A stretch of 64,000 bases of DNA from Nageia nagi (GCA_050084985.1 JBITNC010000001.1:163618001-163682000), one strand, 5' to 3'. Positions 10,200 through 57,600 are shown, counted from the stretch's first letter. The notes: generated from the letters alone by a model not told the origin. Numbers and translations: made by a program.

Positions 10200-10460
10200 T
10201 AAAGAGTCCAATGGTTTTTTTTAACAACCCCTAATGGACTTTTTTTTACAATGTGTTCATTTAACTTTTAAGAAACCACATTAATTTAAATAACAACATT
10301 CAAACCCTAAGAGTCCAATGGGTATTATTAAAAAACCCTAATGGATCTCCTTTAATAAAAGGCTCATTAATTTAATTAACAACATTAAAACCCTAAGAGA
10401 CCAATGGGTATTGTTAAAAACCCCTAATGGATATCTATACAAAAAAGGTTCATTAAATTC
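10200..10460. repeat. Degenerate three-copy repeat in the Copia 5' UTR
   Basis: aagagtccaatgg...ccctaatgga recurs at about 10202, 10309 and 10395. Confidence 0.7.
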
Positions 10461-21081: not shown

Positions 21082-21180
21082 AGGGTTTTCTTGGATGGCT
21101 TCAAGGCCTCACCAATCCCATAAGTAGTGAGGGGTTTTCTTGGATGGCTTCAAGGCCTCACCAATCCCATAAGTAGTGAG
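21082..21180. repeat. Two-copy ~49-bp tandem duplication inside the left LTR
   Basis: gggttttcttggatggcttcaaggcctcaccaatcccataagtagtgag occurs twice here and once in the partner LTR (~25922-25970). Confidence 0.9.
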
Positions 21181-22208: not shown

Positions 22209-23790
22209 CTATCCTATGGAACTTAGTATTTCTTCTCTAGACTCTTTCACACCATGAAGTGCCACCTCTTTGCCATGCATTTTAAACTTCATATCCAACA
22301 TTTTGTAGTTGGAAATTACTTCTCCCAATGTATATAACCATTGTACCTTAACCACTATATATGGTAGTCCTCCAAGGGGAAGAATGTAGAAGTCACTAGT
22401 GACTGCATAATCTCCCAATTTAACTTTAACATTTTCCATTAGCTTGTGGCTAGTAGTTGAAATACCATTTCCAATTACTACATCAAATCTAGAGAACTCC
22501 TTTGTTTTAAATCCCTTAATTTTCATGAATTCTTCGTATATGAAAATATGAGTGTCTCCTCTATCAATGAGTACAACAACTCTACCTTTTTCCATAAGTC
22601 CTTCCACCTTGATTGTTACAAATTATGAAGGTCCCTTCAATGTGGCTAGTGCTCCTCCAATATCTTGAACTCCCACTTCATGTTTGTATCTATTCATCTC
22701 TTCTTCTGAGTCTTCTTGCATTTCACATACCTCCAAGTATATATGTTGAGCCTTTCCGTTACATTGGTGTCCTCTTCCTAGGGGTTTCAACAAGTAAAAT
22801 AGACCTTTTTCATACTTAATGCCTCTTGTATAGCATAATCCAATCTATTTGCATGTATTTGAATAGGAAGTGGGGGTTTGCCTCTTATTGGTTCCTTGTT
22901 TACATTTTTTTCTTGCATCCCTATCATAAGAATCATAGTGAGACTTTGGGTACCTAAATCCTTCCAAAAACTTAGCCTTGTAGATGGTCATGGATAAAGT
23001 GGATGGTTCCATGGCTTTTACTGATGATCTAATTGATTCTTGTAAACCATCCATGAAGAGATATGCTAGCCTTCCATCTTCCATATTGGGGATAAATACT
23101 ACAATCCTTTGAAATTCATCAATGTATGCATCCATGATAGTTGTATGTTAAAGCATAGCCAACTCTTTGAAGTATTTCTCTATATGCTTGTGCTCAAACC
23201 TATTAAGCATGCTTTAGCTAAAGTCTTCAAAGGTCCTAACCTTCCCATGTCCTAGCATAGTAACACCATTATGCCACCATTCATAGGCTATTCCATATAA
23301 AAACATGGTTATTTTCTTGATTCCTTTTTCTTCACTCATGGTATGGAGAGAGAAATAATTTTATGGTTTTTGCAATGAAGCCCTTGCAGATATTTTATCA
23401 CTCCCATCAAAAGTAGGTAGGGGTACCTTGGGTTTCTTATCATCTAATGGTTTTGGAGATCTCTAATTTTTCTTCCTATAGGTATCCTAGTATGTGTGGA
23501 AAGGTATAATTGTTATGAATGTTTAGGCTTATCCATGTACTCTTGAAGAACTTCATCCATATTTTCTTCCTCTTGCTCATTCCCATAAATCTATTTAGGG
23601 GTGAAAAGTGATTCCATGATGTGAATGGATGGAGTATGTCTTGAGGATTCTTCATTCTCAATTGGGGTCCCTTAGTTTTATGCCTTCATATATGTCATCA
23701 TATCAATTAAGAGAGTGATTAGAGCATCTAACTTTTGCTCAACCATTTTGATATTCTACCTTTTGTTCATGCATTGATATTGCTTGTAGA
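22209..23790 (-). pseudogene. Gypsy gag plus aspartic protease (disrupted)
   Basis: KVPLPTFDG..SARA; AYEWWHNG; MDAYIDEFQR..LFMDGLQESIR (22845-23135, retrotransposon gag); VVVLIDRGDTHIFI..DFYILPLGGLPYIVV.VQWLYTLG (22209-22607, retropepsin). The start is approximate. Confidence 0.85.
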
Positions 23791-26700
23791 TATCAAAGGG
23801 CATGAGCTATGAATGCTTGGACTGAAACTCAATGTATTCACCCAGTGCAAAAAAGATGTAAAAGAGATTCATCCTTCCTTCATTCACCAAAATTACCAAC
23901 ATCTAACCTCTAGTGGATGATTTTTATTAAACTCACAACAAATTGAGCCTCTTATACACCCAACATCTCACTTACATCCTCAAGTTTTAGACACATAAGT
24001 AAAATTACTCCAATGTCTCCTTATCAAGATTCCATGGTGTATCATAAAATTTACTCCTATTTACCAATGACCTCCTTACAGTGACTTGTAGGTTAAAATA
24101 TGTCTAGTGACCTTGTAAAATTGTCAATAATTATCTTCCATGATGAAAATGAGTTAATAATTATAAGTAATATTTCTTGTGGTGCAATTTCAACTCCCAA
24201 TTGGTCTCAATTAGCCAACATCCAACTTCAAGTTCCTACAAAATGCAGCAAAGGTTTCAAAAAACCCTTTAATAGCTCAATGTATGACTTCTAGTTACTC
24301 AAAAATTTAGCAAGGACTCTAAAAAATCCTCCAAACCTCCAACATTTGGCCCAAAATGAACTCAAAATGCCAAACAAACTTTGAAACAATTATCATTATG
24401 CCATGTTTTCTTCAAAATGATCTCAAAACGTAGCTCAAACTCCAAAAATATCCTTAGTGTGTTAACATTCACCTTAATATTGGTCTAGAATGCATATTGA
24501 TCTTCATAAATGCCCTCAAATTGCTAACATTTGGCCTAGGGGAACCTCAAAATGCAAAAAGGAGCTCTCAAATTCCCCTACTATGCCAACATCTTTCCAG
24601 AAATGGTCTTGAAATGCAAGATAAATCATAAAATCCTCTTAGTTGGCCAACATCTGCCTTCAAGTGGACTTGAGATGCAAAACCAACCTCAAAAAAGCAC
24701 TCAAAACACCAACATCTATCTCCTTACTAGCTTGAAATGCAAAAATGAACTCAAAAATGCCCTCAAGAATGCAACATCTAGCTTTAGGTGGTTCTAAAAT
24801 GTAGCTTCAATCATAAAAAACACCCTTAAAATACCAACAAACTCCTTATAAGATCCTCAAAATATTGAATAAGCCTCAAATTGGCTCCTAGAATACCAAT
24901 GTACCCCTTTAGGTTGGTACAAAATGCCAATGTATAGCTCTAAATGAGCTTAGACTCTCCTGACAAACCCTTATTCCTCCTTTGAACTCAAAAATATCAA
25001 AAAGGAACTTCAAAATTGATATAAAAATGTAAAAAAAATGGAACTATACCTTATCAAATTGGATGAACCTCCTCAATGCCTCAAAATTTGGAATTAGGGT
25101 CAAAAAATGCCCGATGACTTTCCAAAAGGATGAGATAGAGCTCTCAAATCCCCAACATCTTACTCCAAATGGATAAATCCTTTAAAAACTCCTTCAAAAT
25201 TACCAATATGTTGCTAGGTCAACTCCACTCTTCAACAACAAGATCTCTTAGCAGGTAGCATTATGAGAACTATGATCTACCAGAATATCACAATAATTCT
25301 CCTTCAATTTCTCCAACTCCTTCACCAATCACCTTCAATAGAAACTCCTCAACTCTTACCCATAAGCAAGGGAAAGGTTTCCAACTTCTCTCAACAAATC
25401 TTTTATTTTTGATACCACTGTGATATGGGTATCCCAAACCTTCAAACTCTCTTTAGCTCCAACTCAAAACCGATGCCCTTAATTCTAATAGGATGGCAAA
25501 ATCAAAGCTCTGATACCACTATGATGAGTTGTTCTAGGGCTCACTCCTCAAACATGCCCTAGGAGAGGGGCATTTGGTTTTTTCCTCTAAAATTGCTTAT
25601 GACAAGCTCAAACATGCATAAAATATCTAATGACTTGCTAGGAATGAAAAATATGAAATCAAACTTGCAGAAAATACCTTCAAACCCAACGTTTAACTAT
25701 GGTGCACAATTACAAAATTAATGCAAGAAAATGTCTCCAATATTCCAATGACTTGATCAAGAAGAAAAATAGAAAGTAAACAATACAAAATACCACTCCA
25801 AATCCAACATCCAAATATAAGAAGACAAATAGCAATAGACATTAAAATGTAATTGTATTGATGAAGAAATGGCAAAAATGCAATTACACCTAAGGAGCTT
25901 CTTCCATGAATACCTCTAATAGGGTTATTCCAAATTGCTCTAGGGCCCCACCAATACCATAAGCAATGAGGAAATACCAAGTCTCCTCTATAGCAATCAT
26001 GATGGAACCATCAACATTCCTCTCAATATGGCTTGAGTAAGTTCAAGGATAGTATCCTATCCCCATGTAGATTTCCCTATAAGTAGCGAATAAAGAATTC
26101 TCACACTCACTCCAGAAAAGGGCTTTAAAATCAATAATCAACATATCTCTTAATTGTTATGATTCCTCCTTTTATAGATGAGGGCGATCATCTTCTAATC
26201 TTGCATTGAGATGATGGAATGGTGGAGAGATGTGATTTGTATGCTCCTATATGCAAAGTCCAACATAGGGAGCTTTGGGATTACTAAAATCACATCCAAA
26301 GGATAGAAATGCTAATTTACAATAGGGGGTGATGTCATAGCACCTCATGATCATTTCCATAGGTCCATATTCTTAGGAGGGCCAACGTGAGGTATTGGGA
26401 TGCTCATATGCCCAATGTCCATGCTAGGGAGCCATCCACTTATCTCAAGATTGCCAATGCCTAGTTCGAAGTGCTACATCCATCCTTAGAGCTCCAAATG
26501 ACCTCATAGTTAGTACAATCACTTAGGGGGATGCTCTACCTCAAAGAGGGAAGCACTTATGACTAGAGATACATTTGATTCCAATATTACAATCATCAAA
26601 GCTAAAATATGCAATGCCACTTTTAATGAGACTAATATTGCATTTACAATTATAATTGTTTTGGTATTACAAATACAATATTATTTGTATTTTATTAATT

Positions 26701-27384
26701 AAATTAAACATAAATTAATAAAGGATCATTTATTTCATAATTAAAGCTTTATTAAGTCTCTAAGTGGAATTTACAACATTTTGGCCAAATTCTACAATAA
26801 TAGACATTACTCCTAAATTAATGTTCCCATTTATCAAAGGTGAAATGGAAAAAACACCTAAAAAATGTGGACATTATATCTTTCTAGGGTGAGTTTTCTC
26901 TTTTAGGTCCTAGTTTAAACTCAAAGGTAAATGAAAAAAGAAAGCCTAATCCACTAATAGAGTTAGACAATTCTAAGACCTCCTTCTAGCCCACTTTATG
27001 TTGGGATATTTTTCTTTCCACTTATGAAGGTCACTTAGATGAAAACAAGAAAAGGACACCCAACATATAAGTGATGTTGTGTTACTAACCTCCACTTGTA
27101 AGGACTGATTACCCTAAGGTTTATAGCATCGTATGATGTCTTTTGTGATAATAAAAGTAGCTATACTTAGAATGATCAGTGGGATGATGGAGGCAATAGT
27201 TGTTAACCATGTTTGTTGTAGGATGTGGAGCTGTTCAACACCCCTTGAGGGTATATACTTTTGAAGATAAAAAAGGGGGAAAATGACTAAGTGAAAAGGT
27301 AAAAAGCGCAATATGGGGATGATGGCACTCGATGGGGGTTCATTCAAAGATAAGCCCACCCATGGGGTAGTGATTCGAGTTAAT

Positions 27385-28009
27385 TATGATATGTTTACCT
27401 ACATATCCAATCCTACCACAACTAACTAAGTCCAAGTTGTGTGTAGGATCCTAGGGCAATGTTGACAATGATAATACCATAAGCAACATATGAGGCCAAA
27501 TGACATATAAAGGAATTCATTAACATACACCCATTGCATGCGAAAGAGTAGAAAATGTTCATAAACATTCATACAAAATAGAACCCAAGTAGTAGCAAGT
27601 TCTCAAAATAGCTCTCTTGCAAAAATAATCATCCTCCTTTAAAAATGAGCCTTTAAAGGCTATATATAACATTTCAAAAACCTTAATGGCTAATTACCTA
27701 ATTCTCCTAGAACTACATGAAGATTGACCTTGAATTTGGTGAAATTCACATAAATTATTATTACAGTCAAACCCCTAATGAGATTAAATGAAATTATGTC
27801 AAAAATTAACTAAAATGAAATGAGAATCTTGAGAAAATGGCAATAAAATAAAATATGCTAAAATATACAAAAATATAGAATTCTTTTTCAAACTTGTGGG
27901 AGCAAATCCTCATCCATCACAAGGTCAAAAAATAAACTACATCTAAGAATCAAAGAAAATATGATCTTGAGCATGGGAGGGCTCATTGATTTCCTAATAG
28001 GAGTATGAC
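27385..28009 (-). repeat. Probable truncated LTR fragment of another family
   Basis: LTR-like start tatgatatg and TATA-like ggctatatataac at ~27658. Cut off by the LTR at 28010. Confidence 0.35.
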
Positions 28010-29387
28010 TTTGATGATCCCAAATTGGTAGATCATGCTCAAACATTCCCTAGGAGAGGGGCATTTGCCTTCTTTCTTTGGATCTAGCCATGCAACTTAA
28101 AATAGCACAAATAACCTAATGTGTAGCTAGATTAATAGTTAAGCAACTACAATCATACAAATATAGCTCCAAAAACTCAATGTTGCAACAAGGAAGGTAA
28201 AACAAGAATTTAAGCATGAAATAACACTTCTAGATCCAACATCCAAGCACATATAATAGTTATAGCAAAATGATAGAAATAATATAATTGTATCAATATA
28301 ACAATGGCAAAAGCATAATTACGTAAATATATTTTCAATGCCTAAGGAGCTTTCACCAAGGTTACCTCCAATAGAGTTAGCTTGGATGGCTCTAGGGTCT
28401 CATTAATCGTAGCAACAACAAGGCCAAGCCCAAGGCTTCCCTACTTCTTTGTGATGGAATCAGAAATATTCCTCTCTCGAATGATTAGAGTAAGCTCAAG
28501 GCTAGCCTTCTACCACCCTGAGACCTCAAATGCAGATCACTCCATAAGTGGTGAAGAAATAGTTCTCACAATTTGTCTGATGAAAGGGATTTTAATCATC
28601 AACTTAGCATATCTCAAAATATCCAATAGTTCTCCTTTTATAGGTGAGGTAGTCCATCTTCTAATTTTTCATTGAGATGATCTAATAGTGGAGATATATG
28701 ATCTATGTGCTCTTGATGACAACGTTCAAAATGGAGATCCTTGGGATAAGTGAGATCACATCTAAGGGTCTAGAAATGGAGCATTGGGTTGATGAGGATT
28801 CCAATGTGCCTCTGAGTCCATGCCATGTGGGCAAGTAGCCAAGGATGGTGACATGGGGCCTTAGGATGCACAATCCTTCAACGTGGGGGTGAATGTCTCC
28901 TTAAATTCCCAACATCAAATTATGGGAATCATCCTATGCTTTGAAATACCAAATACTTCTCTAGAAGTGCCATGTCCAAGCTTGGGTGTCCTTGATATGC
29001 CTCGAAGTCGATGTAATCACCTAGGGAGATGCTCTACCTCAAAGAGGGGAGCATTAATGACAAGAGGACCATCTAATGCCAATATTACATTCATCAAGGC
29101 TAGAAATATGCAATGCCTAATTAAAAGAGACTAATATTGCATTTACAAATATAATTACCTTGGTATAACTAACACACATTATTGGCATAATTTAGGCACT
29201 CAAATATACATAATGAATTAATAAAAAGGGTCATTGTTCCATAATTGGAGAATTTAATAAAGTCTCTAAGTGGAACTTACAATAATTGGCCAAAACCTAC
29301 AAAAAATAGATAATGTCACACCTAAGCTAATTTTCCCATTGATCAAAGGTGAAATGGGGAAAACACCATAAAAATGTGGACATTATA
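28010..29387 (-). repeat. LTR related to those of element 20665-26878 (3' LTR of a second minus-strand element)
   Basis: Collinear shared blocks: ctcaaacat.ccctaggagaggggcatttg, ctccttttataggtgagg, gagactaatattgcatttaca, and the terminal aaaaatgtggacattata. Followed by PPT-like gtgacctcctcct. Confidence 0.88.
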
Positions 29388-34370: not shown

Positions 34371-37300
34371 TGATGCATTCAATTGGGTCTAAAATCTTTG
34401 GTCACCTTGCTGAGGGCATGGCTTTTGATTTGGGTGCCTGTTGGGGCTCATTTTTCTTTCAAATCACCTTGGATTTTTTGGACCACTTTTTGGGGCCTGA
34501 TGACTTCATCTTGGACCCTGAATTTCGCATGCAAAGTTATTTCCCAATTTTGGAAAGTGTTAGTTTTTTAGTAGTTTTTAATAAGAGTATCAATTTAGTG
34601 ATGCTATTTTAGAAATGGCATAGTTAATCTATAATGGATGCATGACTCTAGTTCAAAACTCATCCAAGCTATTTTGTAGCCTTTCTAAAAATAGTAAGCT
34701 GATTTTTCTAGGTGTAACAAAAACTTACTTTTTTAGTAAGTTCCGTTACGTAGAATTGGAGGTGGAATTTGGGTATAAAGGAAATGTAATCCTCTTGAAG
34801 GAGGCAATCTAGATTCGAAAATAAAGAAAATTTCATTATTTGGTGAAATTCTTTGTTCATGGTAATTCTTTGTCTATGGAATTAACAAACCAAAAATTAC
34901 CCCTTGAATCCATTATTGGTCTCTTGTAATGAATCTGCACCATTTGGTATCAGAGTAGGTGTGATCTTGCTTGGGGAGAAGTGCCACCTAGAAAAGCCTA
35001 AGGGAGGAGCTATGCCTAGATGAATAGACAGATCGAGAATTTGCATGCAGATATAACATGGTTAGTTGGGGCAATTAACCAAATGGGACATGTACGTCCC
35101 AACATGCAACCAGATCCAAGATCAGATCTAGAAAGCGTGAATGAGGAAGTTGGGTCTCAGGCTAAGATGGAGGCCGAATAAGAAGGTCCAAGGGTAGCAA
35201 AAGTGCCTTTTGAGAATAGACTGATTCAAGCCTTAGAAGGGATGAAAGGGAATCGAGATGGAATCAAGATTGAGGTTCCTAAGTATGTTGGTGGGTGAAA
35301 ACTAGAGGAGCTGATCAATTGGGTGAATAGCATGGAAAAGTATTTTGAACAGAGCAGCCTTGTGGAGGAAAAAAAAGTGAAGCTCGCATGCACAAAGTTG
35401 AAGGGACATGCATTAATCTAATGGGATCATCTACAAGATCAACGCTAAAGGAAAGGAAAGGAGTAGATTAGATCTTGGAAAAAGATGAAGAAAAAGTTGT
35501 AGACTAAATTCATTCCTATAGAGTACTCCCAAACCTTGTTTCCTAGATTTCAGAATCTTTGACAAAAGGAAAAAAGCATTAAAGACTACACCAATGAGTT
35601 CTATAAGCCATCCATTCATGTGGAGCATAGTGAAACAAAGGAACAACGAGCTATGAGGTATGTGAATGGCTATTCAAGATGAGATAAGTATGCATCGCAC
35701 CATTACTATAGAAGATGCATACCAAATGGTCTTGAAAGTTGAGGAGAAACTTAAGAGGATTAATAGAGGGAGTAAGAAGGGAGGAACACCCTCATCCAAT
35801 TAGGGGCATGGTGAATCTAGCTTTGTCAAAGGAGAATCTTTGACCCCTAACAAGCAAGAGGATTAGGTTGGGCATGCTCAAGGTGTCTCCCAAAGGGGAA
35901 GAGGATATTCGAGAGGTAGAGGTAGTTAGGGAGGAAGGAACAAGAATGAGCCAAGGAAGCCATTCATCTGTTATAGATGCAGCAAGAAGGCCATAAGGCA
36001 TTAGAGCACCCTCATTATGATGCTGATGAAAGAGGACCAGCTAGGGTTGCTCTACTTGAAGAAGAGGAGACTGAAACAGAAGTTATTGAAGATGTTGGAG
36101 AAACCCTCATGATAAAAAGAGCCATGACTATCCCAAAGAAGGCCAGCATGCAAGCAGATGAAGGTGGAGATTCATGGCTATGCACAAATATCTTCTGCAT
36201 GAGGTGCACCTTTGGAGGGAAGGTATGTAACGTGATCATAGATGGAGGTAGTTGTGAAAATTTGGTCTCTAAAGTCATAGTTGAGGAACTGAATCTAAAT
36301 TGTGAGAAACATCCTATGCCCTACCGTGTTACATGGATCAAGAAAGGAAATGAGATGATTATTGACAAGAGGTGTTTGATAAGTTTCTCAATCGATAATA
36401 TGTATCAAGATGAAGTATCGTATGATGTGATTCCAATGGATGCATGTCACATATTGCTTGGGAGGCCATGGAAATTTGATAGGAAGGCTTTTCATGATGG
36501 ATGCAAGAATACCTATACATTCTAGAAGGATGGCGTAAAGGTAATACTTTTACCCCTTAAGGAAGAAGTACCCAATCAAAGTTTGTTGTCAAGAAAGAAA
36601 TTCATCACAGAACTACGGGAGGTTGGTTGGTGCTACGCTTTAAGCATAAAATAAGTAGAGGAAGAAGAGGTTCGTATACCGCATACGATCCTAAAATTAT
36701 TGGAAGAATATCCAGATGTCATACCTGAAGAGCTATCAATAGGACTACCACCCAAGAGAGATATTCAACATCACATTGATCTAATTCCAAGTTCAGCCTT
36801 TCCAAATCAGGCAGCCTATCGGCTAAGCCCAACACAAAATGTTGAGTTAAGTAAATAGGTAAATGAATTGATGAAGAAAGATTCATACGCCTGGACTCTT
36901 GACTCCTAAGAAAGATGCCTCCTGGCGGATGTGTATAAATAGTAGAGCCATAAATAAGATCACTATTAGGTTATCAATTTTCGATACCTCGAGTAGATGA
37001 TATGATGGATGTTTGATCGGGGCTAGCTACTTCAATATAATTGATCTTCAGGGCGGCTACTACCAGATCAGTATCAGGGAAGGTGATGAGTGGAAGATAG
37101 CTTTCAAGACCTGATACGGGTTGTATGAATGGATGGTGATGCCATTTGGATTTTCAAATGCACCAAGTACATTTATGCGATTGATGAATAGGGTACTCTA
37201 ATAATACAATGGTAAGTTTATGGTTGTATATTTTGATGATATCTTAATTTTCAGTAAGAGTGAGGTGGATCATTTGTATCATTTGAGGCTGGTGTTAGAT

Positions 37301-40102
37301 CTGTTAAGGAAGGAGAAATTGTATGCCAACTTGAAGAAATGCAAATTTCTATAGGAAAGTTTAGTGTTTTTGGGATTTGTGGTCTCAAAAGGTCTCAAGA
37401 TGGAAGAAGAAAAGGTACAAGCGATTGTTGACTGTCCTAGTCCAAGGAGCATAACTGAGGTTAGGAGTTTCCATGGCTTGGCAACCTTTTACAGAAAGTT
37501 CATCAGGAACTTTAGTAGCCTTGTGGCACCTATCACAGAATAAATGAAAGGGAAGGAATTCTCATGGACAAAGGCAGCACAAGAGAGTTTTGAACTCTTA
37601 AAGAAGAAAATAAAAATAGCTCCTATTTTAGTGTTACTTGATTTCAGAAAACTATTTGAGGTTGATTGTGATGTTTGTCACCTTTGGGATTAGAGTTGTG
37701 TTAAGCCAAGAGGGATGTTCTGTTGCATTCTTCAATGAAAAGTTGTATGAGGTAAGAAGGAACTACTCCACTTATGATGTTGAATTCTACGCTATTGTTC
37801 AAGCATTACGATATTGGTGCCACTACTTACTGTCTAAGGAATTTGTACTCTTCATTGATCATGAAGCATTGAGGTATATTAATTCTCAGAAGAAGTTTAA
37901 TAGTAGGCATGCAAAGTGGGGATCATTCATTCAAGAATATGTGTTTATTTTAAAACATAAATCAAGGAAGCAAAATAAAGTTGCAAATGCATTAAGTAGG
38001 AGAACATTGTTAGTAAGTACCATGGAGAATGTAGTAGTTGGGTTTGAGAGTATCAAAGGTATGTATGAAGATGACTCTAACTTTGCACATGTTGTGTGAC
38101 AGTTTAAAGACCCAACCATGGATGAAGTTGGTCTTATTTTTGCAGAATATGTTATGCAGGATGGGTATTTATTCAAGGGTACATAGTTATGTATTCTAGT
38201 TGGTTCCATGAGGGAAAATCTCTTGCGAGAGTTGCATAGCAAGGGTCTAGCTATGCACTTTGGAGTAGACAAAACACTCACACTTGTTGCAAGGAAGTAT
38301 TTTTGGCCAAATTTGAGGGATGTGACCAGGTTTGTGAGATGATGCAGGATATGTCAGACAACTAAAGGCCAGGCTCAAAATACTGGTTTGTATATGCCCT
38401 TCTTGATCCCTACCAAACCTTGGGTAGATTTGAGCATGAATTTTATTTTGGGACTATCATGAACTCAGCAAGGTAAGGATTCAATCTTTGTTGTTGTTGA
38501 TAGGTTCTCTAAGATGGCCCATTTTCTTGCATATAAGAAGATCGAAGATGCCACTAGTGTTGCAATGTTGTTCTTTGATGAAATTGTAAGGCTACATGGA
38601 GTCCCAAAATCTATCACCTCATATCAAGATGTCAAATTTTTTAGCCACTTTTGGAGGACCCTATGGAAGAAAATGGAGACACAGTTACAGTTCAATAGTG
38701 CATATCACCCACAAACTGATGGACAAACAGAGGTTGTAAATCGTAGCTTGGGTAATCTCTTATGATGCATAGTTGGAGCAAAGCCAAAGCAATGGGATCA
38801 AGCTTTAGCATACGCAAAGTTCGCATATAACAGTTCAGTTAATCGATCCACAAGGAAGTCACCATTACAAATTGTTTATGGAAAGAATCCTAAAGGTGTT
38901 CTCGACTTGGTTGAATTACCACTCACACAAAATGTTAGTGATGATGTTGAGGTGTTTGTTAAACACATACAACAATTGCAAGTGGAGGTTCGAGTATAGT
39001 TACAAGAGAATAATGCCAACTATAAGGAAGCAGCAGATTTGCATTGAAGAGAGAAGATATTCCAGGAGGGTGATTTAGTGATGGTCCACCTTCATAGAGA
39101 ACAATTTCCTAAAGGCACGTACAATAAGCTAAAGATGAAGAAGATTGGTCCTTGCAAGATTCTAGAGAAGAGGAATGACAATCCATATAAGGTGGAATTG
39201 CAAGAGGACCTGGATATTTCACCTATTTCAATATTTCTTATTTATATGCATTCCATGGGGAAATTCATGATGGTGAGGTAGAAGGTCAAGTAAACTGGGA
39301 GGAACAGCTTCCCAAGAAAAAGAAGGAACGCATCGTGCAGATCCTTGATCAAAAGGTGATCACCACTAGACATGGCCAATATCCCAAGTACTTGGTATGA
39401 TGGGAAGGATTATCTGTAGCCAAAAATAGTTGGATTTAAGAAGGGGAATTGAAGAAGCTTGACAACAAGAAGCTCCAAGAATTCCATCAATTGAACTCAC
39501 AGGAGCTAAGTTCTCTTCAACCAAAGGAGATGATGCACTCAATCGGGCCTAAAATCTTGGGTCACCTTGTCAGGCCGTAGCTTTTGATCTGGGTGCCCGT
39601 TGGGGCCCCTTTTTATTTCAAATTGCCTTAGATTTTTTAGACCACATTTTGGGGCCTGATGACTTCATCTTGGACCCTGAATTTCGCATGCAAAGTTATT
39701 TCCCAATTTTTGAAAGTGTTAGTTTTTTAGTAGTTTTTAATAAGAGTATCAATTTAGTGATGCTATTTTAGAAATGGCACAGTTAATCTATAATGGATGC
39801 ATGACTCTAGTTCAAAACTCATCCAAGCTATTTTGTAGCCTTTCTAAAACTAGTAAGCTGATTTTTCTAGGTGTAACAAAAACTTACTATTTTTAGTAAG
39901 TTCCGTTATGTAGAATTGGAGGTGGAATTTGGGTATAAAGGAAATGTAATCCTCTTGAAGGAGGCAATCTAGATTCGAAAATAAAAAAAAATTCATTATT
40001 TGGCGAAATTCTTTGTTCATGGTAATTCTTTGTCTATGGAATTAACAAACCAAAAATTACCCCTTGAGTCCATTATTGGTCTCTTGTAATGAATCTGCAC
40101 CA
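34371..40102 (+). mobile_element. Full-length Ty3/Gypsy chromovirus, CRM-like (5.73 kb)
   Basis: Two 572-bp LTRs (34371-34942 and 39531-40102) with TGATG...CACCA ends. TSD ATGGT at 34366-34370 and 40103-40107. PBS TGGTATCAGAG at 34945-34955. Domain order gag-PR-RT-RH-INT-chromodomain. Confidence 0.96.
34990..39525 (+). pseudogene. CRM-like gag-pol with C-terminal chromodomain (disrupted)
   Basis: KVKLACTKLKGHAL gag; NIFCMRCTFGGKVCNVIIDGGSCENLVS (CRM-type protease, 35977-36525); RT VVYFDDILIFS; RNase H NYSTYDVEFYAIVQALRYW; integrase [21 protein letters not shown]; GPCKILEK; ILDQKVITTRHGQYPKYLV*WEGL...SWI chromodomain at ~39335-39460. Confidence 0.93.
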
Positions 40103-43100
40103 ATGGTTCAAAGTGGATGTACTCCCAAGAGTTGAAGGAACCACTATACATGGTGTGTTATCATTTGTGTGACTGATCCTTGTTTTTCTAGATGGATGAA
40201 TGTTAGATTTGTTGGAGAAGCTTCAAGGAGATCTTGGTTTATGAAATCCTTCAATTCCATCACTTTTGAGCCCAAAAAGCCTAAAAAAGGTCATTATGAC
40301 AAAAAAGCACATTTTGGTCAATTTTGAGCCAAGAAGTGGCCAATATGGTAAAAATGTGCATTTTTGCATAGTTCGAGCCCGGAATGCTTGGAAATGACCA
40401 AAATGCAAAGTTGAGCTCAAAGTGCTCAAAAATACCGAAAATGTAGAATTTGAGCTTGAAATGCCAAAAATATCGAAAATGATCATTTTTGCACATCTTA
40501 AGTCCGAAATTACAGACTTTGAGCTTGAAATATCAAAAATGATCCTTTTTTACCGTTCAAGCTCGAAAATGTTCGAAAATATCAAAAATGGTCGAAAGTG
40601 CATACTTTGAGCCTGGAAATGCATAGCTTGGGCCCATAAAAGATGGAAAAGACCAGAAGTATGCAGTTGAGCCCATAATGGATTAGAAAAACAAGTTTGA
40701 GCATCCTTGGAGGATGAAATCAAAAAATAAGCATTTTGGTGCCTAAGAAGTTGGAGGATGAAATCAAAAAATAAGCATTTTGGTGCCTAAGAAGCCTCGA
40801 GTTGAGCCTAGGAAAATGGGTTTTTTTCTAAATGCTCAAAATGAAAATCTGAGAGAAAGGTGTGATGCCAAATGATGAATTAAGGCAACTTTGCTCTTAG
40901 AAATTTCAAAAAAACTCAAGTTTCACCCTCCAAAAAGTTAGGGGGAGTTTTGCAAGTTTTCCCTCACTCTATCAAATCTCGAAAATGGCCTATTATCTTC
41001 AAAACCTACACCTACGTTTTGGGAGGCCCAAATTGAGATAGAAGTGGGATTTTTGATCTTGGGAGCTTGGAGATTATGATTCTACATCAAATTGGTCTTT
41101 CAAGTTCCCAATTTCGATAAATTTTGCTTCCTCAAAAGTGGAAAATGAGCAAAAAGGACAACCAATAAGAATGCATCAAAATGAAAATCTAAGAGAAAGG
41201 TGTGATGCCGAATCCAATTTTAGGCACCTTTGCTTTTGAAATTTTTGAAAAAAATTAAAAAGCACCCCCCTAAAAGCTAGGCATAGGTTTTGCATGTTTT
41301 CCTACCTTTGGCCAAATTTTGAAAATGGCCTAATTCCCTCAAAACTAGATTGCAAAAAAAAAAAAATGAAATTTTTGATCCCCATGAGGTGCAGGATGGG
41401 ATTTCACACAAAATTGATGATTTGAGTTTTCCAAAAAAATGAGATCTACTTCTTCAAAATCATCAAAAATTGATTAGCCAATGAGAGACCTCCAAAATTT
41501 TCCAAAGTTGGCCAAATCAAAAAAGAAGAAAGAGGTAGGGTAGCAAATCCAAAATGGAGCATCTTTCCTCTTGAAATTAAAAAAAAAAAAACAACAACTT
41601 TTTGACCCCCAAAAAGTTAGGTGGCTCTTTTTCTCAAAGTTCCAAACTTGCCTAAAAATCCCAAAACCTAACCCAAACTTGGGAGTGCCTAAAATTGCTC
41701 AAAAATCAAAACTTTTGGTCCTAAGAGCATGGGAAATCCAATTTTGCACAAGTTTTATGTTTTAAGTTTTTGAAAAAAAACGGATCTACTCCCTCAAAAT
41801 CACAAAAAATGGATCAGCTGATGGGAGAGCTTGAATATTATCCAAATTTTTCAAAATAATCAAAATCAAAATTGGAGAGAAAGGTAGGGTGGAAAATCCA
41901 AAGTTGAGCAACATTGCCTCTTGGAACTTTTCAAAAAACTCAAGATTTGCCTTCCAAAAAGTTAGGGGAGAGTTTTGAAAGTTTTGGGCCATTTCACCAA
42001 AGTTCTAAACATGCCCAAAACCTCTTAAACCTACGCCTAGCCTCCTTCACCCCCAAACTTGCTTAAAGTTGCCATTTTATGATTCCATGTGATAGGTGGT
42101 GTGATTCTACACCATTTTGGTCTCTCATTTGTGCAATTGGTCCATCAAAAACTCCCAAAAACCATCTTTTGGTCTTCAAAGAGGACTCAAGGGCTAACAA
42201 ACTCAAAATTTAAAATCCAAACTCAAAATATTTGGTACCTATGCTTGTTTCTTGGTCCTTAACATACAAGTTGAATGGTATTCTATGTCAGTTTCTCCTT
42301 TCATGACATCTTTTTAGATCCATCCAAAATCATTACCCTTTCACTTTGAAACTTTCTATTTCCATCCATTTGAGGTTCATCCCTACTCCTTTTTGAAGCA
42401 ATTCAAATGTGAAGTTGTTTGCTTGCAATGTTGGATGAATTGGATGAAGAGTCTTTAACTGATTAAGAAGAGATCAACACTTAGACACCTTCCTGTTAGT
42501 GAACCTCAAACTCATATCCGATCAAGTATTCATTCCTTCTCCAAGGTGTTCTCCTTCACCTTTTACTGTATTGTCTTTATGCTTTATTTATGCTTTCGAA
42601 CCCAAATACAATTTTTAAGTCCACACAAATATTTCGAATAAACTCTATACACCAAATAAAACAACGTTGGTTAACAGACTATTACCTCTCATGAGGGACA
42701 TCACACTTTCTTTTATCTATCTCTACACCAGAAACACACTTGACAAACATACCTACAACGTCAAAACGTTGAGTTGTTGAGTAGGGTGTTTCAACAAGAG
42801 CCTTGGAGGTATAAAGTTCTTTTCAAATGGGGGAATTGGTCACATATTCCCAACTACGTTGCTTGGGAGCTCCTAAGTCCTTCACATGATTTTCAAAGAG
42901 TCGCTGCGGGGAAAGAAAAGCCTCCCAACACATCCGAATATAGTAAATACTTCTACTATATTACAAATATTACAATCCTTAAGGATTATGTGTCTAACAA
43001 CTAGTAGAACTAGCTAGTACATACACTATAATCATGAAGAATATTTACAATTTTTGGCTATATAAGTAACTCTTCCTGTAGATGTTGATGTTTATTCTTA

Positions 43101-49988: not shown

Positions 49989-52192
49989 CCTAACATGACA
50001 GATCACAAAATTTCCAAAATCCTTCATGGTGCAGTAAATGATTGATAAAAAAAGAAAAAAAGCCAAGAGACCAAATCAATGCTGAAACAGAATTGTATTA
50101 GAGAACTGACTGCAAACATTAGAGAGGAACAAGAGGAATATAAATCAAGTAGCACAAAAAATATCTGCACTAGCAGCATTTTCTCCTTTTGGGACGCATT
50201 TTCTACTAGCCTTCAAGGCCTATATCATGCAATGCACTCTGTTGGAATATAATGCTGACCATGTGTCAAAATGAATTTGCAACTCCTCTTTTAATTGTTT
50301 CAGTAGAATATGTCAATAGGAAAAATTATTAAGTGTTTCAATAGAATATGTCAGTTTGTAAGAGATTCTTGTGAATGTAACAGTATTGTAATGGGTAGTT
50401 TTTAGTGAGGGATATTTGATACTGAAAAAGTTTTTTTTCAAGATACGATGTCTTTGTGTGCAGACCAGTTTTTTTTCTATTAGATTAAATTGTCTGTATC
50501 AGAAGGTTGTAACTTGTGTTTTATAGATTGGTTTTTGTTCTTATTTATACTTTTGAAAGCCCTTACTAATATTTTTCCAAAAGTATAAACTTTGTCCAGT
50601 TTGAAGCTGTGTAGCTCTTACTGTAATGTTTGCAAAAGCCCCTTCTAGTCTTTTTCTGCTTGGACCTCAGCACTCTAAAATTATCTTGCAAACCTCGTAA
50701 CTTTTTCTGTAGTTCGTATTTTTCCATGAAGTAAAGTTTTCTGAGTACTCGTTATAGAGCAGAAAATACCTTCTATATTTCATGAAATTCTGCATCATTT
50801 TGATCCTTGGTTAAAATGGTTTAAGTGCTCTTTGGAATCTTAGTACACTATGTAGAACTGTAACCCCAGCGCACTGGAGTAACCACACGCTTGTTTTGAG
50901 CTATTTTTCTCCCATTATTGTGTCATAAACTTCATTTAGTATCATAGCCTTGTACAGTTGGAGGATTAGAGTCACCTGTGGTCTCACTAACAATTTATCA
51001 AGTTGTTTTGTAAAGATTATTGCAGGATCCTTGCTTCTTGAGTGTAATGGCCAACAACACTAACTCATTGCCAATCCTTGAGTTTGATGGAGTTGATTAT
51101 GAATACTAGAGCATTAAGATGAGGACCTTGGTAATGGGAAAAAGTTTATGGGATATTTTGGAAGATGGTTACATAAAACCAGTAGATTGGAGCACACTTC
51201 CCGCAGCAGATAGACAAGCTAGGAAGTGTTGGTATGTTTTTTCTTTCCTCGCCCAAAACATGCACAAGACTTGGAGGAAACAGTGTTACTTGTTTCCGCC
51301 TAAAAGGACTGGTTACCCCAGGCACTCACATGGAATATTGACTAGGGCACAGTGGTCAAAGATGCATGTTGTTAACCATATACAAGGGAAATACATGGTC
51401 GGGATTTGTTTTCCACAAAGAGGAAAGATTGCAAATGTGAACGAAAGCGAAGAAAGATCACAAATGCAAGGATAAATGCATAGGAATATAAGAAGACATC
51501 ACCAATGATGCAATGTCTCAGCAGGTCATCTCCGGATTCATTAAGAAAATGTATTCACTTATCAAGTCAGGCAGAAATAGCAAAGAGGCTCAAGTTACTG
51601 CCAGACGAGAGCAAGAAGCTGTAGGGTCTTGGTGGAAGACTGGATGGAATAGGGTGAAGGGAAATGACCAACATGCGAATACATGAATCTAACCGTATGA
51701 CATAGAGACAAGCTATACACCCCAGAATACATTCACTTACGTGCAAACCATGCAATGAACAACTTACACCACTTCGAAAGATATTTAATCAGCTTTTCTT
51801 AGAACTCGTAGTTTTCAAAGAAAATGCACTTAAGCAGTAAAAATCACTCAAAACAGCAAGAGAATCTTACAAGATAATATGCATGATCCCACAAATGATA
51901 ATCTTCATAGCATTAACTTTATAGAACTATTCCAAAAAGAAATAAACTCACAATGATAATCCATAGCATGAACAAAAGCATTCCTTTCTTGATTGCAATG
52001 ATCTCAATATGATATTCAACATGAAACGTAGATACGACAATATGCATCCATGATATGCAAAGAATCCCTTATGTAGCAAATTCTTATGCAACCATATACA
52101 AGAATCCTCAGTTTTAGCAGATGCAATAGTCTTCAATCAACATTATGCCTCCAATTTTGCAAATGCAAAAATCTCATATATGTAGGCCACAA

Positions 52193-52260
52193 GGCATTGG
52201 TGTAGTGGTAAGGGCTCTTGGTCTCCTTTGGGAGGTCATGGGTTCCAATCCCACAAGCCA
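52193..52260 (+). promoter_or_regulatory. tRNA-derived (SINE-type) Pol III internal promoter
   Basis: A box TGGTGTAGTGG (52198-52208), B box GGTTCCAATCC (52241-52251). T-stem TGGG/CCCA, acceptor-like GGC(A)TTG/CAAGCC, anticodon-arm-like CTCTT/GGGAG. Confidence 0.8.
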
Positions 52261-52666
52261 AGAGAGGAAGCTATACCCATGTGGAGGGGTAATAAAGGTA
52301 GTGGTAAAACCTGAGGTGCTAGTAGTGGCTAACTAGGGTTTCCTACATAGTAGATTATAAGGACTCCCCATTACACGCACATAGATATAGATTCTTCAAA
52401 TGTTTACCCTAACAGTTGTTACAAATTCCTTCCAAGAGAAGGCATATGATAGATCTATGAATCGAGCGTGTGATCTATTACGAGAGAAGACCTAGGTGAG
52501 CGAAAGTCGGATTAATCCTGTCAGTAGAAGAAAGTTGGGAGGGGAATGGTGACAGATAGGAACCTCCTACACCCGTAGCAAGGTAAATTTGTTTAACTTT
52601 ATTTTGCTTCTTAGAATGCACCTAGGTTTTCAAATTGCCCTGTAGGCGAATGGAAAGACAAAAACC

Positions 52667-53881
52667 ATGGCGGGAACTCTCTTCGTAGGAGGCAAAAATC
52701 GATACAGGGCCCCCATTGCAGGCAACATGGGAATCGAATGGGAAGCTTCATCTAAAAGTCCCACAAAAAGTTATAGATCAGATAGCAAAAAGAGGGCGAT
52801 TGAGCTTAATTGGCAAAGTACAAGGAGCTAGGCCAAATATAGATGATGTGCGGAGATGGGCAGAGTTCAAATGGAAACTGAGAGGAAGTCTGGATATAAT
52901 AGCCTTACCAAATGATTATTTGCTCTTTGTTTTCGGAAATGAAGAGGATTGAAATGAAATTCTGAGCTCTGGATGGTTCATATCCAACAGGGGACTATTC
53001 CTGGAGAGATGGCAGCCCGGATTTGACCCGACTAAAGCACCGATCTTGAGAGCACCAATCTTAGTTACACTACCCAAGCTCCCGTTTGACCTTTGGCACC
53101 AAAAGGTTTTTGAAGGAATTGGCAATTCCTTTGGAAGATTTATCAAAGCAGATGATGTAACAAAAGCTCGAACACGAATGATATCGGCTCAATTTTGTGT
53201 CATGATAGAATTCGGGGAAAAACTCCCAACCTCTATCACTTTGGTAGCAAAAACAGAAGATTTTGAACAAGAAATTAAGTATGAACCAAATAACTACTTA
53301 TGCTCCCTATGTAATCAGGTTGGTCACATTGCGAGAGTGTGCCCAAAGAGATTGCTACGGGATAAAAAAGAATGGAGATTGAAACCACCCCAAGCGGAAC
53401 CATATATTGAAGAAGATATAGAGAAGAATGATCCGGAGGAAGGTGAGATCAACCCTAAACAGACTATATGGAGAATAAGTCAAGCAGGCTAGAAGATGGC
53501 AAGACAGCACAAAGCACTAATGATCATACTACGGGGGCTGAGAATAACCCTCCGACCAATGAAAATCCATCAAACCCTGCGGTTGAACCTATCTAGCTCA
53601 GTATGGATCTTGATCGTTCTAAAAATGAGGAATGGCAAACAGTGAAAAGTAGAAAGAATAGAGCCAGTCCAACTCAATCTAGTGACACTACAAGTAAAGA
53701 AACCTATCAAAGAGTACTACGTAGTACTTCGAAGAAACCTGATATAGGACAAAGACATTTTGGACGTCCAAGGAAAGAAGAACTCAAGGGATTAGAGACT
53801 GCAAAGGAAGTCACTAATGGAAAACAAGCAACACTCGAAGGCCTTGAAAGAGAATTCCTCCTCAAAACTAAGAAGAAATGA
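52667..53881 (+). pseudogene. Plant L1 ORF1-like protein (DUF4283/RRM-like plus CCHC zinc knuckle), lightly disrupted
   Basis: SLIGKVQG..W.LRGSLDIIALPNDYLLFVF..EED, LFLERWQPGFDP, VTLPKLPFDLW..IGNSFGRFIKAD, YE...LCSLCNQVGHIARVC, EWQTVKSRK. About two frameshifts and one or two stops. Confidence 0.88.
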
Positions 53882-54604
53882 GGTGATAATCTACAGGCTA
53901 CGAGTTTTGTAGCAGATTCACTTAGAGAATTGTTGATTCACACACTAGCAGATTTAAATCTTGAGATTGATAATTATATAACTGTGGCAGCATGTGAAAG
54001 GGTGGTATGAACAGTAACCGATGGAGAAAGTTGATAAACCGTAGCCCATAGTTCTCTTCTCATCTACGGGAGAAACTATGTTAGTTTTTCTCTCAAATGT
54101 AACTTTGTTGAATATCTATCATCATGTATATACAGGTTTTGGGACCCTGTTTTTTGGAAAACCCACTCTTCTTTTTTACCCTTACCAAAAAAAAAAAAAA
54201 AAAAATCTCATATATGCAAAAATCCCCTTCTAAATGGCCTAAGTGGGGTATATATAAGCCACTAGAAGTGTTTCCCTAAAGGCATCAAATCTGATATGGT
54301 GTGCACACACACACAACATACATACTGATACAAAATCTGATTGTTCACAAAAAACAATGCGAGTGGCATTTAAAAGCTGACAAAATATAAATGCCATAGT
54401 CGTAATGCATCTAATCTACTTATAAACTATGAAAAAGAAAATCATATATGCAATAAATGTCTAACATCTGATCCGGCAAGAGCAAAACCTCATCCCTACA
54501 CCAGTCAAATCAAGTAAATGAAGTCTGACATAAAAACAACCACCATCAATATGCATTAAACAAAGAAAGGATAATCGTAGACAAAATCTACGAGTGGATC
54601 AAAT

Positions 54605-57600
54605 CTAGGCCAGATCTGATCCAGTACCAACGAAGCTCCACTCCTTATTGGTGAGACCGTACGACTCAATGGTCTCTTCCAAGAACGCTACGGTCTTTCG
54701 TACTCCCCTGGAAACCATGCCAATGATGCTGCCATTCTGCCTAAAGTAATCCTCAATCTGTTTGGACATAGCCTACATCTGGAATCTTCATATGACCATC
54801 TACCTCTCACAGAGAATAAGATGCCCTGCCTTCAATAAGTTAAGGTCCTCGACCTCAAGATGCTCCTGAATTAGATTTTGAGCCTCTACCAATAACACTT
54901 CCTTCTTGCGCACGTTGTTGTCTTTCCCTTGAAATCTGAGCTAATATACATATTTACTCATCTTCTCCTCTACCTCCTTTCTCAAAGGGATCCTAACTTT
55001 CAGGGCAGCATTGCACTTCTTAAGTGCATGCATCCAGTCGTGCTGATACATAAATTCATGGCAGTAGACCAACTTATCACATTTGTCAGCGAAGATCTTC
55101 CACAGATGGGTGACGTTTGCGAGATAATCATCCAGCTTCTCAAGGAGGGCTGTTATTTGTGATTTCAGCTCTCGAATCTCAACACCTTCCTCGAGGAAGC
55201 TATATATCTGAGAAGATAACTTCTCAATGGTCTCCATCATCTCCTTCTTCAACTGGTCCTTCATTAACTCCCATCTTGCATTGAACGAGGCTTGCTTCTT
55301 CAACTCGATGGGGGTGGTGCTAACGGTTTGGAACTCCTTGATGATTTTCCTATTGGCTGTGAGTTCCTTCTTGAGTCTTCTCAACTCCTTCTTGGCTTCG
55401 TAGCCTTTTTGTTCCATGACAGCAACATTTTGAGTAACAATGTGCTTTTGGGCTATCAGACCTAGCTTCACAGGCATCTTAAATGTTTCAATCATATAGT
55501 CATCAGGTCTCTGGGGATGTTTCTCCTTGGAGTAACAATGGTTGATGGAGATCTCCTTCCTTGTAGTAAAAAAAAGGTGTCTATTCTTCTAACCTTTTCA
55601 CCATCGAAGAACTCCTCTTCTTCATCCTTAGATATCAAGTCCTAATCAATTTCTTCATCGTGAGTCATATTCATGTTCAAGGCTCTAAAGCAGGCATCTA
55701 AGTCAAGATCTGGATGTTTGGTTGCTAGTTTGGAAGGGAGCCTCTGCACCAGTACTTGGCCTCTATTGATCTTCTTGACTTCTTTTTCCGGAGTGACTTT
55801 TGTTGGAGTGGCTTGAATAAGGGCAACCTCCTTACCCTAGTGCTCATCCCGCTTCCTCTTCTTCTTATGTTCCTTGGTTTCCCCTTCATCTTCTTCATCT
55901 CCGCCATCGCCACCTATTGATAAACCTTTCTTGCGTGGTTTAGGGGATCTTTCATGGCTAGTCCTCTTCACAAAGGGCTTTTGAGAAGACAAGGGTGACC
56001 ACCTTCTGTGTTCAGCAGGAGAGTGTTTGGAAGAACCCACCTCTTTGGCATATTTCATTCCAACAATCTGGACTTTTTCGTCATAAGTCCCAATGTCTAC
56101 AATCTGGTCATCACCATCATCCAGGAGAGTTTCAATCTCCATCTCATCAGGTGCAGACGCACCTATGGCTACATTGTCTTGTCCAAGGTACTCTTCATTA
56201 GCAGCATCATTTGCATCATCATCATCTTCTTCTTCTTCATCACCACAGCTTTCTTCATCATTCTCTTGGTTCTCCATCTCTTCCTCTGAGTCTTCTATAG
56301 TACAGTCAGGTTCTTCATCACTTTCTTCATCAAAAGAATAAGTGGAATATTTTGAAGAACTAGAACTTGGTTGCAATGGGGGAACTTTCTCTCTGCATCC
56401 AGGAGGACGAGTAGGTCTAGATGGAGCTTCTTCAACAGGGGAATCACTAGCACAAGCTTCCTCCAGCATACTCAAGGGGATGGTATAATAGTCAGTATCT
56501 CTAAGATCAGCCACCACCTGTTGGCTTTTCCTAACTACATCAGTCACCACATCATGTTTACTAGGTCCTAATGCATGTTCCCTTGATGCTCCTTGTCATT
56601 TCCCAATGAGAAGCAAGGGTGTTTTAGCATGTAGAGGCGCAACGTTTGCAGAAGGAGGAGGGGACGTTATGATCCTCAATGGTACCTCTTTGGGTCTTGC
56701 CTTTACAGTTTTGGATCTTGCAAGTAACCATTCTTCCTAGAGGGGAGCCTTATTCTTGCTCAAAAGAGCGCTATCTCCTCCTCATCTTGCACATTCATGT
56801 ACTTCTCCACATTCCCTAAAGATTTGTGCTAGTAAGTAACAAGTTTTTAGAATGCAATGCTGTAGAAATGAACAATTACACCTCTGGGATCATAATTCTT
56901 GGCTGCCATCTCCTTAAAGAAGACGTATTGTTGCAGTTCCTTCTTCATATTGTTGGCCTCAACCCATGTCTGGCAAACATAACTTGCGATGGAAATGGGC
57001 AAGTTGATGGTTACATCCATCTTTCTCCATACTCGTTCCTTTAAAAACACCAACTGCCTAGCAAATTCCATGAGAATGAGTCTATTACTGGCATATCTGG
57101 GTAGGAGCAAGGGTTGTTCTTCAAAGCCATAGACCATAATGTAAGTATGATCAATATATTGCAGATAGAAGTCTGCATGCACACTGATAGCCTGAATAGC
57201 AGCATCAAAAATCCTCCTGACTACTAATTCTCCCTTAATATCTTTGTAAATGGTGTACTCCCACTGATCATTCCTCTCATAGAAATGCTTGAACTTATTA
57301 TAATACCACCACTTCGGGTAGGTCCGCCACACTGGAATGCCTTTCTAACCCAAATATCTCTCATCTGCAAGCTCTCTCGATCTAAGCTTGCCATGTAACA
57401 ATAGGTACACAAGATAGGAATTCATATAAAATCTTTTGGAAGAGCCAAAGTAGGCCAATTGATGACGTAAGGCATCACTGATTACCCTGCTCCATCTGAC
57501 AACTCTCCTTGAGTTGATCAATGAATCCAATCAACTCCCTCCTATACTTGGAGTCATTTACTTGACCCATGACTCTGGACAACAAAGTGATCAACTTAGC

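What the first reader, a model, noticed from the sequence alone, without database searches (positions are those of the whole stretch)
52183..54216. tRNA-headed, ORF1-only L1 derivative: a protein-coding SINE/LINE hybrid
Seen: a single 16-bp TSD and poly(A) tail enclose a 2.0-kb unit. It starts with a tRNA-like cloverleaf (A and B boxes; the 5' end loosely resembles tRNA-Gly), continues with a complete L1 ORF1 of ~400 codons with few lesions, and ends ~300 bp after ORF1. ORF1 stops at ...AAGAAATGA, where an overlapping ORF2 ATG could sit, but that frame closes at once (ATG AGG TGA). Established: ordinary L1 decay is 5' truncation, which loses ORF1 and keeps RT; ORF1-only HAL1 elements are known in mammals; SINEs are normally non-coding. 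Inference: a non-autonomous family that supplies its own RNA chaperone and borrows ORF2 in trans. T-runs at ~52602 and ~52627 should stop Pol III, so full-length RNA probably needs Pol II, with the tRNA head acting as an enhancer, insulator or promoter module.
Basis: partly seen in the sequence, partly recalled or inferred. Interest (0 to 1): 0.85.

Follow-up and report, generated by a model that had tools for sequence, protein, structure and literature searches.

The report
SINE fused to half-L1 plant retrotransposon
One 2-kb jumping-gene insertion in a plant genome joins a short tRNA-promoter repeat (a SINE) to a LINE-1 element that has only its RNA-binding gene; the two parts also occur apart in related genomes, so this is likely a one-off fusion made during copying rather than a new hybrid family.

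Summary
The anatomy is real: an exact 16-bp target-site duplication and a poly(A) tail enclose a 2.0-kb unit with A/B boxes, a plant L1 ORF1 (DUF4283 plus zinc knuckle, ATG 52650, about 409 codons, 4 lesions) and no detectable ORF2. The head is not a tRNA cloverleaf. It is a complete 230-bp SINE that exists on its own: in contigs of 7 public runs it has sharp ends, varied flanks and head-to-tail tandems. The ORF1-only body also looks like a family: a relative shares the non-ORF2 sequence right after the ORF1 stop, another ends ORF1 at the same residue, and a third related locus lost ORF2 at a different point. No contig joining SINE and L1 5' UTR was listed, but none of the runs looks like the window's own organism, so a species-specific fused subfamily stays open (about 20%). 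Best reading: a SINE/half-L1 chimera formed in one target-primed insertion, like the human Alu/L1 chimeras, with ORF2 borrowed in trans. The more durable result is a HAL1-like ORF1-only L1 family in a plant, which my searches did not find in print.

The parts
52167..52182 (+). Left target-site duplication (16 bp)
   Evidence: Exact match to 54201-54216; 2 copies in 64 kb
52185..52414 (+). Full-length tRNA-type SINE, 2 nt inside the TSD, without the T-rich tail that other copies carry; A box 52198-52208, B box 52241-52251
   Evidence: Loose ends before 52192 in 55, 50 and 45 contigs (X1, X2, X8) and after 52410-52414 in X8, X3, X5, X14; tandem joints 52412->52184-52194; A+B pair unique in window
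52415..52475 (+). Spacer of unknown origin between SINE end and the conserved L1 5' UTR
   Evidence: First 10 nt resemble a SINE-to-SINE linker in one X14 contig; two X6 5' UTR contigs read unlike letters here
52476..52649 (+). L1 5' UTR, with splice-like signals (GT at 52496, AG at 52613-52614; unconfirmed by RNA)
   Evidence: Contigs of X3, X5, X6 lie on 52470/52484-52720 at about 85-90%; motifs read directly
52650..53881 (+). Decayed L1 ORF1, about 409 codons: DUF4283 (about 52833-53192), CCHC knuckle (about 53286-53354), basic C-terminus; stops at 52686, 52950, 53594 and a 2-nt insertion near 53465
   Evidence: Pfam; P0002 intact 390-aa relative 61%; P0008, P0157 fix both ends; the 2 extra letters are absent in 2, 4 and 5 contigs of X2, X8, X3
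53882..54186 (+). 3' region with no ORF2 domain; 54004-54127 shared with related locus L001; last 12 nt match the SINE's last 12 nt at 10 of 12
   Evidence: 0 Pfam hits in 3 frames at E<=1; 72% to L001 2240-2368
54187..54200 (+). Poly(A) tail (14 A, running into the A-rich TSD)
   Evidence: Sequence
54201..54216 (+). Right target-site duplication

Best explanation
The unit is a complete SINE joined to a full-length ORF1-only plant L1 inside one target-site duplication, likely made in a single insertion when an L1 ORF2 protein supplied in trans copied the ORF1-only RNA and then switched to (or met an RNA already ligated to) a SINE RNA. Shown: one TSD, poly(A), ORF1 without ORF2, and each module occurring without the other's flank in related genomes. 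Inferred: the ORF1-only element is a HAL1-like family that made its own RNA-binding protein and borrowed endonuclease and reverse transcriptase from an autonomous L1; the SINE used the same machinery (its 3' end resembles the L1 3' end); the fusion is likely private to this locus and dead, since ORF1 has four lesions and 12 T-runs would stop Pol III read-through.
For: SINE is free-standing: 55, 50, 45 contigs (of 6246, 6165, 4876 laid) run into varied letters before 52192, 37 X8 contigs into varied letters after 52412, and head-to-tail SINE joints occur in X1, X2, X8, X3, 7 X3, 2 X5 and 9 X14 contigs leave the window at 52410-52424, some straight into another repeat head. L1 5' UTR contigs in X6 go on upstream into 21 and 46 unlike letters. 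L001 (69% ORF1 relative) has no SINE match in 785 bp upstream (score within shuffles). The SINE is full length, sense, 2 nt from the TSD and has no TSD of its own, the pattern of the 452 Alu/L1 chimeras (PMC13174262 section 12). ORF1-only family: X1 record 8 bridges the ORF1 stop with 65 and 96 letters on either side and carries the same non-endonuclease sequence; 3 X3 contigs cover 54015 at up to 65 letters from their ends; P0157 ends at the same LLKTKKK; L001 goes from about 90 codons of endonuclease (Pfam E 7e-4) directly into the shared 3' segment. ORF1 dN/dS 0.14 over 248 codons against L001. SINE and L1 3' ends match 10 of 12, a score reached at 5 of 63988 window positions.
Against: None of the 7 runs laid (of 19 listed) looks like the window's own organism (1 of 61 records >=99% alike), so a young species-specific fused subfamily would be invisible. 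The upstream-running 5' UTR contigs (8, 21, 46 letters) are too short to reach where a SINE would end. The head is far more CpG-depleted (o/e 0.09) than the L1 body (0.39-0.67), which fits capture of an older genomic SINE copy better than a fresh SINE RNA. The 60-bp spacer is unexplained by a clean switch. In X1 and X2, 50 and 31 contigs leave the window at 53995 into one shared sequence; by eye it is a second copy of the 53958-53995 unit, but I could not follow it, so ORF2 further down in those relatives is not excluded. Only one listed record bridges the ORF1 stop (32 of 18467 rows shown). dN/dS includes time spent in autonomous ancestors. L001 may be 5'-truncated.
Confidence: 0.55

Rival explanations
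1. A propagating SINE-headed, ORF1-coding subfamily in the host lineage: an ORF1-only master captured an upstream SINE as its new 5' end and made further copies.
For: 5' end of the insertion coincides with the SINE's first base; the body is full length; the SINE lacks its T-tail; the CpG-poor head suggests an older captured copy; 5' UTR replacement is known for L1 (PMC5753468 passage); in X3 the SINE is followed by recurrent fixed sequences in 3 and 4 contigs, so fused units do amplify.
Against: Every listed SINE contig that runs past 52424 goes into other letters; the body has its own 5' UTR found with other upstream letters; 12 T-runs block Pol III; U6/L1 chimeras usually do not propagate (PMC13174262 passage); no second copy in the 64-kb window.
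Confidence: 0.2
2. One-off 5' transduction: at a source locus an old SINE lay about 60 bp upstream of an ORF1-only L1, and a transcript starting at the SINE was retrotransposed once.
For: Explains the spacer and the CpG-poor head.
Against: Needs a 2-kb transcript that starts at a Pol III start and crosses 12 T-runs; the spacer keeps 2 CpGs like the L1 body.
Confidence: 0.1
3. Two separate insertions: the ORF1-only L1 came first and the SINE later landed just inside its left TSD.
For: This SINE often sits directly in front of other repeat heads (tandem joints), which could be a target preference.
Against: No duplication longer than 2 nt flanks the SINE, its T-tail is missing, and it sits 2 nt from the TSD; the head looks more, not less, decayed than the body.
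Confidence: 0.08
4. ORF2 was lost only in this copy (private deletion near 53995-54004) from an ordinary L1 with a long inter-ORF spacer; independent of how the head arrived.
For: 50 X1 and 31 X2 contigs diverge at 53995; L001 homology starts at 54004.
Against: X3 contigs cover 54015 well inside their length; in L001 the endonuclease starts right at the ORF1 end, not after a spacer; the divergent letters look like a duplicated UTR unit.
Confidence: 0.1

Closest known systems
Alu/LINE-1 and U6/LINE-1 chimeric insertions (Law and Burns 2026, PMC13174262)
   Same: Full-length, sense Pol III RNA copy 5' of an L1 part, one TSD, poly(A); formed by template switching or RNA ligation; 452 Alu cases in human.
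   Different: Plant host; tRNA-type SINE; the L1 part is itself non-autonomous (no ORF2) and full length; a 60-bp spacer lies at the junction.
HAL1 (half-L1), with HeT-A and Ag-Sponge as ORF1-only elements of other clades (PMC5753468, PMC5786205)
   Same: L1-derived, encodes only ORF1p, keeps 5' and 3' UTRs, poly(A) and TSD; repeated independent origin is suggested here too by L001.
   Different: Plant-type ORF1 (DUF4283 + CCHC) rather than mammalian Transposase_22; so a separate origin, not a member by descent. HAL1 is described from mammals in the passages I saw.
SINE2 with LINE-derived body (Bov-tA, CoeSINE4, SINE2_Gav; Kojima 2018, PMC5786205)
   Same: tRNA-type head upstream of 5' and 3' parts of a LINE.
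   Different: Those are short, non-coding, RTE/Vingi-derived and multi-copy; that paper states that SINEs cannot encode a protein. Here a whole ORF1 is present and multi-copy status of the fusion is unshown.
Autonomous plant L1 such as Celine (PMC11288735)
   Same: DUF4283 ORF1, 5' UTR, poly(A), TSD.
   Different: No endonuclease or reverse transcriptase; 2.0 kb against 6.1 kb.

Membership tests
Plant L1-clade non-LTR element | ORF1 with DUF4283 and CCHC knuckle | tested here: met
   DUF4283 as plant ORF1 marker per PMC5203782 passages
Plant L1-clade non-LTR element | TSD and poly(A) tail | tested here: met
Autonomous L1 | ORF2 with endonuclease and reverse transcriptase | tested here: not met
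   0 Pfam hits in 3 frames of 53878-54190; no tblastn hit with one distant endonuclease that does hit L001 weakly
HAL1-like ORF1-only element | ORF1 followed by 3' UTR without ORF2 | tested here: met
HAL1-like ORF1-only element | Several copies share the ORF2-less structure | tested here: inconclusive
   One listed bridging record in X1, X3 cover at 54015, P0157 same C-end; no full second copy seen end to end
HAL1-like ORF1-only element | ORF1 under purifying selection after ORF2 loss | tested here: inconclusive
   dN/dS 0.14 against L001 but the path includes autonomous ancestors
HAL1 proper (mammalian) | Descent from mammalian L1, Transposase_22-type ORF1 | tested here: not met
   ORF1 is DUF4283 type
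tRNA-derived SINE (head alone) | A and B boxes at tRNA spacing near the 5' end | tested here: met
   52198 and 52241, consensus motifs recalled, one mismatch each allowed
tRNA-derived SINE (head alone) | Dispersed repeat with fixed ends and varied flanks | tested here: met
   Loose ends and tandem joints
tRNA-derived SINE (head alone) | Assignable parent tRNA or cloverleaf | tested here: not met
tRNA-derived SINE (head alone) | Pol III transcription | not testable with these tools
   No raw RNA reads available
SINE/L1 chimeric insertion | Full-length sense small-RNA copy 5' of L1 within one TSD | tested here: met
SINE/L1 chimeric insertion | Both parts arrived together (orthologous empty site) | not testable with these tools
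   No genome held
Protein-coding SINE/LINE hybrid family (proposed) | Same head-body junction at several loci with different TSDs | tested here: inconclusive
   No bridging record listed in 7 related runs; source genome not searchable
LTR of a small-RNA-bearing TRIM (Cassandra, Helenus type) | TG...CA ends, 4-6 bp TSD, internal PBS/PPT region between repeats | tested here: not met
   Other copies start after T-rich letters without TG, tandem linkers are mostly 3-14 T-rich letters; no 5-bp TSD

The most novel reading that the evidence does not exclude
A multi-copy plant retroposon family whose RNA starts at a tRNA-type SINE, encodes its own ORF1p and borrows ORF2p: a protein-coding SINE/LINE hybrid of the kind that Kojima 2018 argued cannot arise, formed by a half-L1 capturing a SINE as its 5' end.
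Probability: 0.2. Interest if true: 0.78.

Novelty: new member of a known kind. Interest (0 to 1): 0.42.

Why it matters
Under the best reading it extends two things described in mammals to a plant: ORF1-only L1 families, apparently arising more than once (this element and L001 have different ORF2 breakpoints), and SINE/L1 chimeric insertions, here between two elements that both lack ORF2. That would suggest cis-supplied ORF1p is an advantage for plant DUF4283-type elements too, and gives a natural system to test what that uncharacterised ORF1 does. If the fusion is a family, it would break the rule that SINE-headed elements are non-coding and catch 5' end replacement in the act.

Tried and rejected
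No genome held for the window, so no copy count. Holes in cover prove nothing and are listed only here: 52432-52467 had no cover in X3, X5, X6, X14, 52422-52595 next to none in X1, X2, X8, and 54015 none in X1, X2, X8; summed contig depth is not a copy number and was not used as one. Viral contigs: 0 loci for ORF1 and 0 for a 21-nt SINE pattern. GTDB match L003 is a chance 21-mer in a bacterial gene. L002 is a weak 33% match, not studied. Search for ORF2 proteins with L001's endonuclease piece found none, so whether 54004-54127 is UTR or ORF2 remnant rests on position and lack of Pfam hits. tRNA cloverleaf and Gly isotype rejected. LTR/TRIM reading of the head (it happens to be bounded by TG and CA) rejected, see membership table. 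ORF1 read-through into the 42 open codons after the stop rejected: P0157 ends at the same residue. An early frameshift near 52700 rejected once P0002 and P0008 showed the true frame. Earlier scan findings: 3 look-ups, all empty. Bao and Jurka 2010 (HAL1) not held. No structure prediction run; it would not bear on the question.

Full report
Setting. The window is 27-44% GC and full of LTR-retrotransposon debris. The ORF1 domain is DUF4283, the dominant plant L1 ORF1 domain (PMC5203782, passages), so the host is a plant; a conifer is my guess from recall and was not tested. No genome is held.

Observation. A 16-bp exact duplication bounds the unit at 52167-52182 and 54201-54216; it occurs twice in the window with 0.0002 expected. 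Poly(A) runs 54187-54200. ORF1 starts at ATG 52650: P0008 begins with the same residues at 80% identity and P0002 is an intact 390-aa relative at 61%. Pfam gives DUF4283 at E 1e-25 and a zinc knuckle. It ends at 53881; P0157 ends at the same LLKTKKK. Lesions are stops at 52686, 52950 and 53594 and a 2-nt insertion near 53465 that 2, 4 and 5 contigs of X2, X8 and X3 lack, so this copy decayed after insertion. The three frames after the stop have no Pfam hit at E<=1. The head has an A box at 52198 and a B box at 52241 (consensus motifs recalled), the only such pair in the window against 0.05 per shuffled window. It is not a recognisable tRNA: ARAGORN and Rfam find none, the relaxed ARAGORN call is matched by 107 of 200 shuffles, and the fold is not a cloverleaf.

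The head is a free SINE. I laid contigs of 7 of the 19 listed runs. In one search (6246, 6165, 4876 and 973 records laid; 24 of 2058 loose-end rows and 15 of 99 joints shown) 55, 50 and 45 contigs run into varied letters before 52192 and 37 X8 contigs into varied letters after 52412. Joints from about 52394-52414 back to 52184-52197 show head-to-tail copies with short, mostly T-rich linkers. In one search (61 records laid) 7 X3, 2 X5 and 9 X14 contigs leave the window at 52410-52424, one into a second SINE head and several X3 contigs into recurrent other sequences. So 52185-52414 is a complete SINE whose usual T-tail is missing here. Its last 12 bases match the 12 bases before the L1 poly(A) at 10 positions, a score reached at 5 of 63988 window positions, which hints that it depends on this L1 clade.

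The body looks like an ORF1-only family. The 5' UTR from about 52470-52484 is present in contigs of X3, X5 and X6; two X6 contigs go on upstream into 21 and 46 unlike letters. X1 record 8 spans 53817-53977, across the ORF1 stop, with the same non-endonuclease sequence, and three X3 contigs cover 54015 at up to 65 letters from their ends. L001, 1 of 2 loci from the metagenome scan, has a 69% identical ORF1, then about 90 codons of endonuclease (E 7e-4), then directly the segment matching 54004-54127 at 72%: an ORF2 loss with a different breakpoint, and no SINE in its 785 upstream bases. ORF1 dN/dS between window and L001 is 0.14 over 248 codons, 11 stop-containing codons skipped; this includes autonomous ancestry. 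Against: 50 X1 and 31 X2 contigs leave the window at 53995 into one shared sequence that I could compare only by eye (it resembles a second copy of 53958-53995), and only one listed record bridges the stop, from a table showing 32 of 18467 rows.

The junction. No listed record joins SINE end and 5' UTR. That is weak: the runs are relatives (1 of 61 records at >=99%), contigs are short, and the upstream-running UTR contigs stop short of where a SINE would end. What is positive is that each module is seen with other neighbours. The SINE is full length, sense, 2 nt from the TSD and without its own TSD. Law and Burns 2026 (PMC13174262; abstract, passages and section 12 read) report 452 TSD-bounded Alu/L1 chimeras, mostly full-length and sense, and say U6/L1 chimeras usually do not propagate. 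Two facts fit less well: a 60-bp spacer of unknown origin, and CpG o/e of 0.09 in the head against 0.39-0.67 in the body, which would suit an older captured SINE; the SINE's own consensus was not available, so this is only a hint.

Mechanism. Shown: structure, decay, separate existence of both modules. Inferred: an ORF1-only RNA with its own ORF1p recruited ORF2p in trans; after copying it, ORF2p switched to a SINE RNA, or the two RNAs were ligated first. No evidence here bears on enhancer or insulator roles.

Comparison and novelty. HAL1 encodes only ORF1p and arose several times in mammals (PMC5753468, passages). Kojima 2018 lists HeT-A, HAL1 and Ag-Sponge as ORF1-present non-autonomous LINEs and says SINEs cannot encode a protein (PMC5786205, passages). 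Celine is an ordinary autonomous plant L1 (PMC11288735, passages); PMC8312256 (passages) had nothing relevant. Six literature searches (listings only unless named above) showed no plant ORF1-only L1 family and no plant SINE/L1 chimera, but the library lacks most subscription papers, Bao and Jurka 2010 was not held, Repbase was not searchable and no supplements were read. Verdict: real; two known kinds of element meeting in a known kind of chimera, in a host group where I did not find them described. Interest 0.42; a propagating hybrid family remains possible at about 0.2.

Noticed in passing
window 52496-52614: Intron-like signals in the L1 5' UTR (AG|GTGAGC, a branch-like TTAAC, pyrimidine tract and TAG; 119 nt); L001 has a similar acceptor at 728-742. 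The T-run at 52602 is part of this tract. No RNA evidence.
   Followed up: partly
L001 786-2368: A second ORF2-deleted L1 relative keeping about 90 endonuclease codons, suggesting repeated origin of half-L1s in this clade.
   Followed up: partly
window 52412-52414 (runs X3, X5): The SINE is followed in several contigs by recurrent fixed sequences, probably other repeat heads, so SINE heterodimers or composite repeats may be common.
   Followed up: no
window 51900-52182 and 54217-54500: Both flanks are covered by contigs of other genomes and share an ATGCAAAAATC motif: the unit inserted into an older dispersed repeat.
   Followed up: partly
window 34371-40120: Direct repeats of about 590 bp (94% alike) around protease and RNase H-like frames: a decayed Ty3/gypsy-like element of 5.7 kb.
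   Followed up: no
window 4069-11917: Direct repeats of 466 bp (94% alike) around a minus-strand copia gag/pol remnant (8261-9166).
   Followed up: no
window 54941-57344, minus strand: Three open stretches of 215, 252 and 165 codons with no convincing Pfam hit, one very acidic; possibly accessory frames of an LTR element.
   Followed up: no
window 20667-29387: Three diverged partial copies (65-79% alike) of a 1.4-kb segment near an aspartyl-protease remnant.
   Followed up: no
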